A stretch of 64,000 bases of DNA, taken from Eledone cirrhosa (lineage: Eukaryota). Under the pieces are notes generated by a model that had not been told where the DNA came from, ran no database searches, and was given only the letters and a program-made list of their open reading frames with translations. Positions 2,991-59,492 of the stretch are shown one piece after another; position 1 is the first letter of the stretch; the number at the start of each line of letters is the position of its first letter. Position numbers and translations under genes: made by a program. The stretch covers positions 174,964,001 to 175,028,000 of the forward strand of contig OZ024742.1 of assembly GCA_964016885.1 (NCBI GenBank), in the 5' to 3' direction.

Positions 2991-3867
2991 ATATTGTTAT
3001 ACTTTGGGAGGGTCATGTTGCCAATAAGAAACACACGCACCAGTTGCTTCACTTCAATTTATTATATATTTATAAATTTGTAGATTTCTGGTTGGTTGGT
3101 ATGTAGTGTATAGCATAAGATGTACTGAAGGACAATGTAGAGACAAAAATATAATGTACATAGGTGAGACAGCTCGTAGTGTAGGTGAACGGATAAATGA
3201 ACACTGGCGAGACCTTCAATATAATAAAGAATCATCTGTACTCTACCAACATGCTAAGATAGAACACAAGGGTAAATTAGAGAACATAGAAATAAAAATA
3301 GAATCTACACACAGAAAAGACGCAATGTTTAGACAAATTACAGAGGCATTAAACATAAAAGAATTACAACCAAAATTAAATAGAAAATATGAGTGGAACA
3401 GCAACATCACAACTTACAATTAAGGGCAAAATGAAAACACACACACACATAGAACAAACAACCAACCAGTAACATGTAAATAAACAAATAAATAAATGAA
3501 CATAAACACACACAGACACCCGGATGTGGCGCATGCGCAGACTGAGCACACAACACACACACACAGAAACAAAATGGCGTAGGACAGAACAAAGAAGAGG
3601 CACAGAAACAAAGAAAGGAATCCCCAGTCACTGAAGTTGTCACAGAGTGTGTGACGAAAGAACTATGACTATATATAAACAACTATCTGGTTGTGGAACC
3701 AACCAACCAACCAGAAATTTATAAATTTATAAATATATAATAAATTGAAGTGAAAGCAACTGGTGCGTGTGTTTCTTATTGGCAACATGACCCTCCCAAA
3801 GTATAACAATATCGGTTTCAACACACGATTTCAGATAATGAATCTTGCTAAACAAATTCAGAAACGA
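2991..3867 (+). mobile_element. 5'-truncated Penelope-like element (family B): inverted pLTR arm, GIY-YIG endonuclease remnant (3106-3423), pLTR with degenerate HHR (3626-3670) and tail
   Basis: ORF VYSIRC...YIGETARS...RINEH...RQITEALNIKELQPKLNRK is a GIY-YIG domain; 2991-3100 is the reverse complement of the pLTR end (~3700-3811); (TA)n on both sides. Confidence 0.85.
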
Positions 3868-3885
3868 TATATATATATATATATA

Positions 3886-4872
3886 CAGTGAGCGGACGAA
3901 ATTTGTTCGCAAGATTACTGTCTAGGAAGAGTAACACAGTAGTTTTCTTTTTTAAGATATATTTATCAAACTTGGGTCAGTTTGTCTTCATGAATTGTTC
4001 TTTCTATCTCACTCGATAAACCCGCCATTGGGTTTGATGACGGCCTCAAGGCGGCCTCGGAACCGGCTACAGGCCTTCGTCACTGTCCCCCGGCTTAGGG
4101 CCCTAAAGGCACTTGTGATCCTGGCCTTCAGATCGTCTTTCGTATTGCAGCTAGATCTGTTGGTGTCTCGTTCCACTGCGCCCCACACAAAGAAGTCGAG
4201 GGGGTTGCAGTCAGGCGAGCTGGGAGGCCAGATGTCAGGTGAAGTGTGGTCAACAAAGTTCTCTGACAGCCAGGCTTGGGTCTTTCGGCTGGTATGGCAG
4301 GGCGCTGAGTCTTGCTGCCACACGTACGGCCTACCTGCAGCTACCTGGTCGATCCAGGGCATTACTACCTCGCTCAGAACGCGGATGTAGCCATCGGTGT
4401 TCTGCTTGAGGCCCTCAGGGAAGAAGTGAGGTGGCATGACGTCACCTTGACTGCTGACGACACCTAAGACCAATGTTGTCGCTGGAAACTTTGTCTGCAT
4501 GACTCTGGGCACGTCTGGATGAGACGGCAAGCCACCTGATGTTCTGGGATTTGATCTTCTAGTCTTGGCAGAAGTTTTTCTCGTCGGAGAAAAACCTAAG
4601 CATGTCTGGCTCCACTGGGTGTTTCAACTTATTGATCAGCTTCTTCACATGCTTCAGTCGCTTTTCTTGCATCGCCTTTGACAGAAATTGTCCTTTCCTC
4701 ATCTTGTATGAAACGTAGCGAATGTCTTCATGTACTACCAGCCTAATGAGCTTTTCATCCACGTCTTTCTCCCTTGCAATCGCACGCATCAACTTGCTAG
4801 GTTCATTGTTGATGATATCCTGAACTTCAGCGACGAACTCGGGAGTTCTGAAGGCGTTCAATCGTCGATCAT
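3886..4872 (-). mobile_element. Tc1/mariner DD37D (maT-type) transposon, 5'-truncated, transposase pseudogene
   Basis: ORFs 4559-4861 (FFSDEKNF) and 4009-4530 (WQQDSAPCH...WPPSSPDCNPLDFFVW); 37 residues between the 2nd and 3rd Asp; end CAGTG... follows TA. Confidence 0.85.
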
Positions 4873-5012
4873 GTGCAGAACAATAATATAAAAGACGTAA
4901 AATAAGAAAATATTTTTTAAAAAATTTAAAAAAATTTTTTTTTTTTTACTTACTTACTTAAATTTTCACTCCAACTAATTTGTTTCTTGCCTGGAGACTC
5001 AGCTGAGAATAG

Positions 5013-5094
5013 ACTCCCTGATGACGCAATGAATTCTCGACAGTTGGATTACGTAACTGTCTTTATCCCATTGCATAAACTAATTAGTTGGAGT
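5013..5094 (+). ncRNA. Hammerhead ribozyme, family A, core-mutated copy
   Basis: Same as 5567-5648 except GAAA reads TAAA (5076-5079). Confidence 0.75.
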
Positions 5095-55725: not shown

Positions 55726-55931
55726 TATATATATATATATATATATATATATATACATACATATACATACACATACATATATATATATATATATATATAT
55801 ATATATATATATATATATATATATACATATATATACATACACATATACATACATATATATATATATATATATACACACATATACACACACACACACACAC
55901 ACATATATATATATATATATATATATATATA

Positions 55932-57990
55932 TTGAAACAGAGACTGGACGACAAATTATGGCTTGACATAGAAACGAATTTCTGTCGGGCTGCCTACCAA
56001 CTAAAATGGATATCGACTCTCGGCAACAACACCACGGAATCTAACAAAGCCAGATTCCCGATATACCAACTGGATCGCCCACTCTGTCCACCGCCGGCCA
56101 ACCGTGAGCTTGAAGAAAAACTCTCGAGGCTAAAACATTCCGTATTTAACATCTTACGGAAACAGAAGATAGCCCCAAACTTCTCCAGGACACAACAACT
56201 CGCCCTGAAGAACCTACAGAATAGGGAACTTATATACTTACCATCCGACAAAGGTAAAGAGTTTTACGTCATATTTCAAGCCACATACAACAACCTAGCC
56301 TTTGAACACCTAAGCGACAATGACGTATATACAGAGATCCCGGACATGACTGCAGCCCAGATCGAAAAACAGACCAACTCCATCTGGTTCGATATCTGTA
56401 GGAGAAGACAACTCCCAAATAAAGTTAAGCTCAACTACACCACTAGAAATAGCAGACTGCCCACTTTCTACCACCTCATCAAGACCCACAAGAATAGTAC
56501 TAAGACACAAATAAGACCCATCGTCTCTAGCATAGAAGGACCCCTATACAAAATTTCCTGGCTCCTCTCCCAGGTCCTCAAGCCTCTACTCTCCACCTTT
56601 CCCGGGCATGTCAGTAGCTCTGACGAAGTTATACGTAGACTACACCAACTCCAGCCAGAACAACTTAAACTAAATAGATACGCCTTTAGCCTCGACGTTG
56701 TCTCCCTCTACACTACAGTCTCCGCTCATCCAGCTGTCGATTTATTGACGGACTGCGTGGTCGCAGAGGACATCCACTGCTACGGACTCCATCCGACGGA
56801 CATACACCAGCTTTTGTCCTTCACAGTGGACAACACGTACTTCACCTTCCACCACCACACATACAGACAGACAACAGGATTACCCATGGGATCCAGCCTA
56901 TCGGACCTGCTGGCCATCACCTATATGAACCAGCTAGAATGCCGAGCCCTCAACACCTGCCATTCCCATACCTTCTTCACCCGATATGTAGATGACATAC
57001 TCATCCTTACATCATCCCGTGAGGAGGCAGATAAAATATACACAACATTCTCCAACATGGACGCCAGTATAAAGTTCAGCATGGAACGCCCCAATGACCG
57101 CGGATCCCTATCCCTACTGGACTTCCAGCTCAGGGTAACAGAGGAAGGAAACATCCACACCTTCTTCTATAAAAAAGAAGCGAGCAGGGACCTCTGCGTA
57201 CATTTCAGATCGGCCCTCCCAGCCGGCGCTAAGTTCGGATACATAAGGAACGAACTAACACGTATCCAGAACAAATGCACCGACGCTAGAGACCGAGACA
57301 CTCACCACACATTTCCTGGAAGTACTCAAACTGAACGGATACACAAAATCCACCACTAAGGAAAGAAACCTCGGCAATCTTAGAAGTAAGGAAGCACTAA
57401 TTATAGACAAAACACAACCACCAATCAATAATAGACTAGAACTCAACACCCAATTTATAACTTGATAGAGCATCTAACCCCATATTTACACAGCCCCCCC
57501 CCCCCACACACACACGCACGCATACACACACACACACACGCTTACACCTCCACTTATTCTCTCACACACACACACATACACACACAAAGACCAGTTCTAA
57601 CACAAGATAACATCTATCCCCCACATTTACGTATAGAAATATCTTCTCACACTCACACACACAAATACTTACACCTTCATGCACTCTCCCACACACTTAA
57701 ACAGGCATGTAAAAAAAACCCTTTTAAAGGGAGACTACTCTTTATCCACCTAATCTTAACTCTTTGAAATTAGAGGTAGAACAGATACTCTATACCATTT
57801 CCTGTCAGCATGACTTGGCAAGCTATTTAGAACACGGGTTTAACCGCTTTACTTCCGTCCGAAGAAAAGATATTATCTCGAAAATTAAGGACATTTAAAT
57901 AAATCTAAGGTAAAAGACTAATTGTCAACAATATCTTTTGCATTTGCTTTCTTTATGTTATGTTCATACCTGCGTTTTTTTGGCTTTATT
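55932..57990 (+). mobile_element. Penelope-like element: long open RT domain (55932-57359), endonuclease missing
   Basis: [59 protein letters not shown]; truncated after the thumb; possible HHR remnant at 57857-57892; TA-rich flanks. Confidence 0.88.
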
Positions 57991-58330
57991 ATACATATAC
58001 AAACGTTTATATATATATATATATATACATATATACAGATATATATACATATATATACATACACATATATATACATATATACATATATACATATACACTT
58101 ACATATATACACACACACACATATATATATATATATATACATACACATAAATATACACATATATATATATACAACCATATACAAACTCATCTACATACAC
58201 ATATATACATATATATACACATATACATAGATACACACACATATATGTATATATATATACATACATATATATACACACACACACACACACATATATATAT
58301 ATATATATATATATATATATATATATATAT

Positions 58331-59492
58331 ATAAAAGACGTAAATTAAGAAAATTTAAAAAAATTACTAAAATTTTCACTCCAACTAATTAGTTTCTGCA
58401 ATGGGATAAAGACTGTTACGTAATAAACTGTCGAGAATTCATTGCGTCATCAGGGAGTCTATTCTCAGCTAAGTCTCCAGGCAATGCGCAGACACTGGGG
58501 ACTCATATAAAAATAATAATAATTCGGTAAATGGAACAGCTAGCGGGGACTGGATTCCATGCACTGAAAATCTCGCTGTCACTGGTCAAATGGCAGATTC
58601 TAAAGAATCAATCACGTGACACAGAGACTAGTCGGTAGGAGTGGGATGGTAAGATGACAGAAGCCTACTAAAACACCAAATAAATTAGTAGTGGTTTTGG
58701 CAGGTTTGCTCGACAAATACGTTATTTGGAGATAAATATAGAGGATTTAGTATATCTTCTAACATATGCGTACAGATCGACGCTAATGCTAGCAAATAAG
58801 TAAGTAAGTTAATTTTTTTTTAATTTTCTTATTTTATGTCTTTTATATTATTGTTCTGCATCCTCCTGCATTGAACCACCTAGGTACTATGACATAACCT
58901 GTGTATTTGCTAGCATTAGCGTACATCTGTAGCATATGTTAGTAGATATACTAAATTCTCTATATTTATCTCCAAATAACTTATTTGTCGAGCAAACCTG
59001 CCAAAACCACTACTAATTTATTTGGTGTGTTAGTAGGCTTCTGTCATCTTACCATCCCACTCCTACCGACTAGCCTCTGTGTCACGTGATTGATTTTTTA
59101 GAATCTGCCATTTGACCAGTGACAGCGAGATTTTCAGTGCATAGAATCCAGTCCCCGCTAGCTGTTCCATTTACCGAATTATTATTATTTTTATATGAGT
59201 CCCCAGTGTCCGCGCATTGCCTGGAGACTTAGCTGAGAATAGACTCCTTGATGACGCAATGAATTCTCGACAGTTTATTACGTAACTGTCTTTATCCCAT
59301 TGCAGAAACTAATTAGTTGGAGTGAACATTTTAGTAAGTAAGTTAATTTTTTTTAATTTTCTTATTTTACGTCTTTTATATTATTGTTCTGCATCGTCCT
59401 GCATTGAACCACCTAGTTACTATGACATAACCTGTGTATTTGCTAGCATTAGCGTACATCTGTACGCATATGTTAGTAGATATACTAAATTC
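58331..59492. mobile_element. Family A retrozyme-like insertion: inverted arm (58331-58798) plus ~1.3 tandem ~533-bp monomers
   Basis: Intact HHR on minus 58378-58458; plus-strand HHR 59243-59323 (TTGATGA); 58799-58960 repeats at 59333-59492; TA/TC microsatellite flanks. Confidence 0.88.

What the first reader, a model, noticed from the sequence alone, without database searches (positions are those of the whole stretch)
2991..59492. Shared insertion grammar: tail-bearing arm plus an inverted arm that stops at a fixed internal AT-rich site
Seen in independent insertions. Family B secondary arms all end at CCCAAAGTATAACAATAT (2991, 7890, 34997). Family C arms end at CCCCAA(C/G)TATAAC(A/T)AT (44010, 55725). 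Family F arms end at AATAT before TAATAACTCTGG (11905, 17945). Family D arms end at CATACTTA (6095, 42045). Family A arms end at TTT(T/C)ATAT (9817, 58331). The opposite arm carries an extra family-specific tail, and inner junctions vary. Known: PLEs often have an inverted 5' pLTR. Inference: each family has two defined priming sites, both matching (TA)n, one for each target strand (twin priming), and the two cDNAs are joined internally. One exception: the arm at 4874 runs ~15 nt further and abuts the maT element.
Basis: partly seen in the sequence, partly recalled or inferred. Interest (0 to 1): 0.75.

Follow-up and report, generated by a model that had tools for sequence, protein, structure and literature searches.

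The report
One-tailed hairpin insertions of Penelope retroelements
These TA-repeat insertions are Penelope-type jumping genes in an already described layout, but nearly every hairpin-shaped copy has one tailed and one tailless arm, which suggests that both cut DNA strands likely start copying the element's RNA at two different fixed points.

Summary
Observation confirmed and genome-wide. All listed arm ends exist; 10 of 12 window insertions are tailed arm plus inverted tailless arm. In family B, 13,325 tailless and 13,843 tailed ends abut (TA)n; 36 tailless ends are out of register. Of 164 resolved hairpin insertions from five families, 141 pair a tailed with a tailless end, 2 pair like ends, 21 have one irregular end. 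B/C carry Neptune/Nematis-type, F Hydra-type motifs; A/D are hammerhead-bearing tandem units with no coding region seen. The tail, inverted pLTR, (TA)n bias, two RT start sites and extension of both strands in vitro are published (PMC8557442, PMC3846280, PMC11167929). Not found in my searches: the near-obligate one-of-each pairing, the 1:1 count and the in-register TAT/ATAT match. The tailless arm more often reaches further (76 vs 39 of 128), which simple fold-back cannot give; arms overlap in 93 of 128, unlike L1 twin priming. Two-primer mechanism inferred, about 0.65. The scan reported this before on other DNA.

The parts
2991..3870 (.). Family B insertion: tailless arm 2991-3100 (-), tailed arm 3100-3870 (+) with GIY-YIG C-terminus 3115-3420 and hammerhead-like core 3631-3665
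   Evidence: (GIY-YIG E 0.0016, below the Pfam cut-off)
3883..4873 (-). Mariner-like (DDE) element fragment fused to the A arm at 4874; its other end was not seen
   Evidence: DDE_3 E 0.0035, below cut-off; TIR read by eye
4874..5837 (.). Family A insertion, exception: left arm runs ~12 nt into the tail and joins the mariner ORF; right arm of 2 tandem units with tail
6094..6980 (.). Family D insertion: 57-nt tailless arm (-), tandem tailed arm (+)
7473..7891 (.). Family B insertion: tailed arm (-) that jumps from -30 to about -258 relative to the tailless site; tailless arm 7628-7891 (+)
9305..9820 (.). Family A insertion with canonical tailless end at 9819; partner is only a 24-nt tail fragment (atypical)
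11905..12182 (.). Family F insertion: tailless arm (-), tailed arm (+)
17945..26667 (.). Family F insertion: 218-nt tailless arm (-) plus two 4,001-bp tandem units (+) with a broken RT/EN ORF bearing RWR, DKT and CxCX5C motifs (Hydra-type)
34402..34997 (.). Family B insertion: tailed arm (-), tailless arm (+); the 34997 end is out of register with the TA flank
41469..42050 (.). Family D insertion: tailed arm (-), tailless arm (+)
42784..44011 (.). Family C insertion: tailed arm (-) that jumps from -28 to about -697; longer tailless arm 43126-44011 (+) with EN fragment
54864..55728 (.). Family C insertion: tailed arm (-), tailless arm (+)
58329..59495 (.). Family A insertion: tailless arm (-), tandem tailed arm (+), tail end followed by (CT)n then (TA)n

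Best explanation
These are truncated head-to-head insertions of Penelope-like retroelements and hammerhead-bearing short derivatives in (TA)n, with one tailed and one tailless arm, likely made by two separately target-primed cDNAs. Inferred steps: (1) the GIY-YIG nuclease nicks both strands of a (TA)n; (2) each 3' end pairs by about 3-5 nt with a UAU/AUAU in the element RNA, one at the pLTR end and one about 45-115 nt downstream at the tail end; (3) both are extended for similar, independent lengths, often stopping near a putative RNA 5' end; (4) the two cDNA ends are joined by end-joining with 0-3 nt microhomology or short inserts. The one-of-each rule would reflect an asymmetric enzyme-RNA complex. 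Whether one RNA (with strand displacement) or two RNAs of the same source are used is open. Shown: architecture, counts, register, arm lengths. Inferred: steps 1-4.
For: Pairing: 141 of 164 resolved inverted insertions are tailed + tailless (139 full, 2 with cut tail); like pairs 2 of 164. Anchor-only pairing gave 116 core+tail and 3 core+cut-tail of 126 pairs. All 6 inverted insertions in 200 kb of unselected DNA fit. Genome-wide B: 13,325 tailless vs 13,843 tailed ends, 431 read-through. Register: 13,325 in vs 36 out. Read-through copies show TAT/ATAT at both sites in B, C, A, D and F; positions ending a run of at least 3 alternating T/A are 6.5-18% of nearby sequence (48% in one D reference). 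D copies with TATAT stop mostly at one site (13 of 24 tailless ends); D copies with TACAT scatter over 8 end forms in 13 ends. Arm lengths are equal in distribution (61 vs 67, p 0.66). The tailless arm reaches further in 76, the tailed arm in 39, equal in 13; a simulation of independent equal lengths gave 78 (67-89) and 47 (37-58). 17 of 128 tailed arms hold tail only. Clean joins: at least 2 nt overlap in 19 of 38 vs 18% null. PAc in vitro extends both strands, starts at two sites that bound the tail, and is predicted to be a dimer (PMC11167929).
Against: No empty sites or target duplications could be read inside (TA)n, so nicking and priming are not shown. Long palindromes may lose their centres after insertion (general knowledge), which could shift inner junctions; jumps inside arms (7473, 42784, L030) may be such deletions. 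Both arms end at the same position in 13 of 128 (3.5 expected), a fold-back-like excess. Arms of one insertion are closer to each other (2.4-4.1%) than to other copies (6.7-10.1%), which fits fold-back as well. 21 of 164 have an irregular partner end. In-register continuity also follows from a fixed nick phase plus a fixed start without pairing; PAc starts at a site 'not homologous' to the target with no strand difference in start sites. In one search, 53 of 91 joins scored as inserts, many through failure of my extension routine, so that test rests on 38 joins. Most loci were picked by the tailless-end anchor on contig C1.
Confidence: 0.65

Rival explanations
1. One cDNA primed at the tail end folds back on itself (self-priming), is copied to the pLTR end and resolved by the nuclease; later asymmetric deletions in the palindrome reshape the centre.
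For: Self-priming is proposed from junction palindromes (PMC3846280); the tail is ascribed to EN-mediated resolution (PMC8557442). 13 of 128 have equal inner ends; short snap-back inserts at some joins (L164/L165); arms share one source.
Against: Without deletion the tailed arm must always reach further; it does so in 39 of 128, the tailless arm in 76 (p 0.0007 vs 50:50). Symmetric deletion would give about 50:50. 17 tailed arms contain no sequence of the other arm. The tailless end sits on an RNA TAT/ATAT motif and moves with it.
Confidence: 0.2
2. Two target-primed cDNAs, but start sites set only by protein-RNA structure without base pairing to the target; the TA register comes from a fixed nick phase.
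For: PAc initiates at an AC-rich stem-loop not homologous to the cut DNA. Register alone cannot separate the two. The A and D tail regions fold well (z -5.3 and -3.7).
Against: All ten family sites fall on TAT/ATAT in their main subfamilies. Ends scatter where the motif is broken (D TACAT copies) and C tail ends shift among TA/AT sites with subfamily sequence. 12 of about 41 listed stray B loci end at a TTAT (counted by eye), though later deletion could do the same.
Confidence: 0.1
3. Classical L1-type twin priming on one RNA, the second primer landing where the first cDNA stops, so the arms do not overlap.
For: 17 of 128 tailed arms stop before the tailless site. One B locus (L181) has an inverted piece starting where the other arm ends. 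In the L1 example the two cDNA pieces are adjacent, not overlapping (10.1101/2024.12.14.628481).
Against: In 93 of 128 the tailed arm passes the tailless site by more than 40 nt; no clear pile-up of tailed-arm ends at that site (16 vs 11 and 11 in flanking bins).
Confidence: 0.03
4. Ready-made hairpin units are amplified whole (MITE-like, or as read-through RNA primed in the flanking UA repeat), so the fixed ends are inherited.
For: Ends are identical across thousands of copies.
Against: Among 175 junctions only two pairs are near-identical (about 99%); L074/L247 share both flanks and L164/L165 the unique flank shown, i.e. segmental duplications; one further local tandem array (L250) was collapsed.
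Confidence: 0.02

Closest known systems
Complex insertions of endonuclease-positive Penelope-like elements (partial tandem pLTRs, adjacent inverted 5'-truncated copy, 30-40 bp tail often at one end only; PMC8557442, PMC3846280)
   Same: Head-to-head inverted arms, one-sided tail, pLTR ending a few codons into the ORF (C: end in codon 8-9 of a 1,217-aa open frame), (TA)n targets, hammerhead-like cores.
   Different: Tails here are about 45-115 nt; the pairing is near-obligate when counted (141 of 164); the tailless arm is not the shorter one.
PAc Poseidon element of Anolis in vitro (PMC11167929)
   Same: Two start sites that bound the tail; both strands cut and extended; AT-rich target.
   Different: PAc starts are in an AC-rich stem-loop, described as not homologous to the target, with no strand difference; here both ends carry an in-register TAT/ATAT match and are used one of each per insertion.
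L1 twin priming (5' inversions; 10.1101/2024.12.14.628481 passages)
   Same: Two target ends extended by RT and joined head to head.
   Different: L1 pieces are adjacent and the second primer site varies (latter recalled); here both sites are fixed and the arms overlap in 93 of 128.
Non-LTR retrozymes, proposed non-autonomous PLE derivatives (10.64898/2026.07.22.740005)
   Same: Families A and D are tandem 420-560 nt units with type I hammerhead-like cores and no coding region seen.
   Different: They insert with the full PLE tail/inverted-arm grammar, which points to PLE-protein TPRT; their autonomous partner was not identified.

Membership tests
EN+ Penelope-like elements | Single ORF with RT and C-terminal GIY-YIG endonuclease | tested here: met
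   C: 1,217-aa open frame with YVDD and a GIY-YIG-type end in random block R3; B: 335 + 863 aa frames in L203/L204; GIY-YIG hit on window 3115-3420 weak, E 0.0016. F: broken ORF, no Pfam RT hit; motifs read by eye.
EN+ Penelope-like elements | pLTRs in partial tandem, inverted 5'-truncated copy, tail | tested here: met
EN+ Penelope-like elements | Hammerhead motif in the pLTR | tested here: met
   CUGANGA..GAAA..UH pattern found in B, C, D2, F2 and A3 references, read by eye in A and D; Rfam gave no hammerhead hit; cleavage untested.
EN+ Penelope-like elements | Target-site duplication | tested here: inconclusive
   Flanks are (TA)n, median 50 nt of simple repeat; no usable empty site.
Neptune/Nematis-type PLE (B, C) | CX2-5CxxC linker plus two cysteines between GIY and YIG | tested here: met
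   C-X4-C-XX-C before the EN and two Cys inside the GIY-YIG core in B and C; definitions from PMC8557442.
Neptune/Nematis-type PLE (B, C) | RT phylogenetic placement | not tested
   No reference RT set was at hand; Neptune and Nematis not separated.
Hydra-clade PLE (F) | RWK-like motif, DKT for DKG, CxCX5C linker, (TA)n targets | tested here: met
   RWR, DKT and CxCX5C in window 18500-20960 translations; definitions. Phylogeny not run.
L1-type twin priming | Non-overlapping inverted and direct segments | tested here: not met
   93 of 128 overlap by more than 40 nt.
Non-LTR retrozymes (A, D) | Tandem non-coding units with a hammerhead in each unit | tested here: inconclusive
   Tandem units of 420-560 nt; hammerhead pattern checked in single references only; circular RNA and cleavage not testable.

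The most novel reading that the evidence does not exclude
Double-ended priming is the default integration route of endonuclease-positive PLEs: an asymmetric RT-nuclease complex pairs the two nicked (TA)n strands to two different UAU sites of the element RNA, one each, in both Neptune/Nematis-type and Hydra-type elements and their non-coding dependants. This would explain the tail and the inverted pLTR as one event, and slippage at initiation may add simple repeats such as the (CT)n at family A tail ends.
Probability: 0.35. Interest if true: 0.7.

Novelty: new member of a known kind. Interest (0 to 1): 0.45.

Why it matters
PLE papers call the tandem/inverted structures and the tail products of 'still undefined features' of the transposition cycle (PMC8557442). 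A counted one-tailed-one-tailless rule, 1:1 stoichiometry over about 27,000 ends of one family and an in-register TA match give sharp predictions for the existing PAc in vitro assay. PLE RT is the sister of telomerase RT, so primer-template pairing at fixed internal RNA sites would be of wider interest. Practically, these hairpins could be mis-annotated as MITEs. The elements and their layout are known.

Tried and rejected
Rfam scan of the window: no hammerhead hit; nearly all 77 matches are microsatellite-driven miRNA hits, all below gathering score. Inner ends at the predicted hammerhead cut: 1 of 74 within 6 nt, 4.8 expected; not supported (most A arms and about half of the F arms had no mapped cut site). 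Empty-site reconstruction from other repeat copies: 4 candidates of 128, none usable. Different-template test: differences between the two arms rarely match common family alleles outside homopolymers and G/A sites; uninformative for one vs two RNAs. RNA folding at the end sites: no common structure (z about 0 for B and C, -1 for F). Sequencing runs: no RNA holder listed. Laying reads on L017: a RAD-seq run of the same species label from another study showed a loose end at the tailless site with an (AT)n consensus (2,633 reads), but the library is biased (C>T conversion pattern) and showed no matching tail-end peak; contigs of another organism label showed the tail end in 3 records; two Hi-C runs gave 6 and 0 reads. 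Not used as support. First-pass classification errors (one A continuation reference was a TA run) were corrected; one search used a C reference cut short, redone. Rows dropped: of 254 blast junctions, 67 lacked an anchor hit (mostly microsatellite matches), 8 had a low-complexity short arm (including the true window D insertion at 6094 and L115), 4 were tandem duplicates in L250; 175 kept, of which 1 was a double count (L196) and 10 were cut by locus edges. The 128 still include two segmental duplicate pairs and the window exception at 4874, scored 'core' by tolerance. Literature searches listed no paper holding Penelope, pLTR and twin priming together; Arkhipova 2006 and Evgen'ev and Arkhipova 2005 were not seen and may already state the one-sided rule. 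PMC13282606, PMC9977147 and PMC12602865 (passages) gave nothing on arm ends.
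Full report
Setting. The window lies in a 3.0-Gb eukaryotic assembly, G000:C3:174964001-175028000, 35% GC and rich in (TA)n.

Observation. Self-alignment and tiling give 12 inverted insertions of families A, B, C, D and F; 10 have a tailed arm and a head-to-head tailless arm, each ending at (TA)n. 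The arm at 4874 runs about 12 nt into the tail and is fused to a mariner-like ORF, most simply a later deletion. The partner of the 9819 end is a 24-nt tail fragment.

What the families are. C has a 1,217-aa open frame in an unselected block, with RT, a C-X4-C-XX-C linker and a GIY-YIG-type end with two internal cysteines; B is similar. By the definitions in PMC8557442 (passages) these are Neptune/Nematis-type. F carries RWR, DKT and CxCX5C in a broken ORF, matching the Hydra description. No tree was built. A and D are tandem 420-560 nt units with hammerhead-like cores and no coding region seen, like non-LTR retrozymes (10.64898/2026.07.22.740005, part 1 of 5 read; PMC4209133 passages). In C the tailless end falls at codon 8-9 of the ORF and the tail is the next 14-20 codons, as described for rotifer Pen2a (PMC3846280, passages).

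Genome-wide counts (exact patterns, reversed controls 0). Anchors: B 29,173, C 13,491, A 3,089, D 32,994, F 4,765. In B, 13,325 copies stop at the tailless site in register with (TA)n, 36 out of register, 12,828 continue into the tail, 13,843 stop at the tail end on (TA)n and 431 read on into the ORF. Stops in the ~25 nt upstream of the tailless site give 217 raw matches, of which 39 forward; minus-strand rows repeat loci. The two ends are sharp and used about 1:1.

Sampled insertions. I fetched 310 loci, merged to 238 sequences with the window, 1.2 Mb: 200 kb unselected from four contigs, the rest around pattern hits in order on contig C1. Anchor pairing gave 116 core+tail and 3 core+cut-tail of 126 pairs. 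Blast tiling, which finds the partner arm without an anchor, kept 175 junctions of 254 (filters under Tried and rejected). After re-calling interrupted arms, 164 were resolved: 141 tailed + tailless, 1 tailless pair (L069), 1 tailed pair (L263), 21 with one irregular end (two of these, L143 and L166, look like low-complexity matches). All 6 inverted insertions in the unselected DNA fit. Only two junction pairs are near-identical, both with shared flank sequence, so the events are independent.

Ends. Read-through copies show both sites on short alternating T/A in the main subfamilies: B ATAT and ATAT, C ATAT and TAT, A TATAT and TATAT, D TATAT and TAT, F ATAT and a longer run. Nearby, 6.5-18% of positions end such a run of 3 or more (48% in one D reference). 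Where D has TACAT instead of TATAT, 13 ends spread over 8 forms; with TATAT, 13 of 24 are at one site. C tail ends move among TA/AT sites with subfamily sequence. This favours short pairing, but register alone cannot exclude a fixed nick with a fixed start.

Arms and joins (128 core+tail insertions). Median lengths are 208 and 217 nt; the tailed arm is longer in 61, the tailless in 67. The tailless arm reaches further upstream in 76, the tailed in 39, equal in 13; independent equal-length cDNAs predict 78 and 47. 17 tailed arms hold only tail. A fold-back of the tailed cDNA cannot give these unless later deletions are biased. 93 overlap by more than 40 nt, unlike L1 twin priming (passages). 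Against my reading: equal inner ends are in excess (13 vs 3.5), both arms share one source (2.4-4.1% vs 6.7-10.1% divergence), and palindromes can lose their centres. Of 91 joins scored, 38 were clean, with mean overlap 1.7 nt vs 0.9 null; 53 scored as inserts, many through failure of my routine. Inner ends do not cluster at the hammerhead cut (1 of 74) but do at an AAGATGGCG-type motif in B and C (p 0.006 and 0.012, motif chosen after seeing the data).

Mechanism. Most likely (0.65) both nicked (TA)n strands prime on element RNA at two different fixed TA-matching sites, and the cDNAs are end-joined. Fold-back plus deletion 0.2; two primers without pairing 0.1; others 0.05. No empty site, TSD, RNA or enzyme data support the steps directly.

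Known versus new. [quoted passage not shown] PMC11167929 (parts 1-2 of 4 read; supplementary PDFs 1-2 gave only fragments of figure text, the spreadsheet was not read) shows two RT start sites bounding the tail, extension of both strands and a predicted dimer, with starts not homologous to the target; its supplementary figures may bear on the homology question. My six searches listed no count of one-of-each pairing and no twin-priming model for PLEs; Arkhipova 2006 was not seen. Four earlier scan notes describe the same architecture on other DNA, two with the same two-primer reading; they are not independent support. One suggested inner ends mark the RNA start and the ribozyme cut; I found support for the first only.

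Verdict. Real, ordinary elements in a known layout, with a well-counted pairing rule that sharpens an open mechanistic question. Interest 0.45.

Noticed in passing
window 59496-59530; L082, L086, L107, L110, L272, L274, L277: (CT)n between element and (TA)n at 9 of 29 family A tail ends vs 2 of 402 other ends. RT slippage at initiation or later compound-microsatellite growth from a CT seed; not separated.
   Followed up: partly
families B and C, about -242 and -300 from the tailless end: Inner ends cluster at an AA(A/G)ATGGCG motif (B 11 of 43, 4.8 expected; C 9 of 35, 3.9 expected). It resembles a YY1 site (recalled) and may mark the RNA start. Other clusters: B near -100, F -180 to -160, D -190 to -170.
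   Followed up: partly
window 2454-2844 and 1926-2339: A further family with an inverted pair (2454-2704) and one-sided extension between (TA)n runs; copies in random blocks R0 and R3.
   Followed up: no
window 11452-11725: Another near-perfect palindrome (11452-11664) with a one-sided extension between long (TA)n runs.
   Followed up: no
L203 and L204 (G000:C1:13322700-13335700): Two near-identical B arms of about 4 kb, one tailed and one tailless, face outward 12 kb apart with other sequence between them.
   Followed up: partly
R3 block, L203, L240: B and C ORFs carry long Asn-rich stretches, recalling the N-rich inserts of rotifer Penelope (PMC3846280).
   Followed up: no
window 12682-13716 and 55935-57356: Fragments of two further PLE-like ORFs (GIY-YIG E 5e-7; RVT_1 E 2e-14) beside (TA)n runs; ends not analysed.
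   Followed up: no
window 38277-41116, 60307-63315, 45274-47868: Decayed LINE-like (AP endonuclease/RT) and LTR-like ORFs, judged by eye.
   Followed up: no
L250, L274: A C hairpin insertion amplified five times in tandem (L250); two mirror-image A hairpins around B insertions (L274).
   Followed up: partly
window 7473-7628 and 42784-43126: Both tailed arms jump upstream after about 30 nt past the tailless site; at 7473 the jump lands within 12 nt of where the other arm ends, as expected if an RT skips RNA occupied by the other cDNA, or from later deletion.
   Followed up: partly
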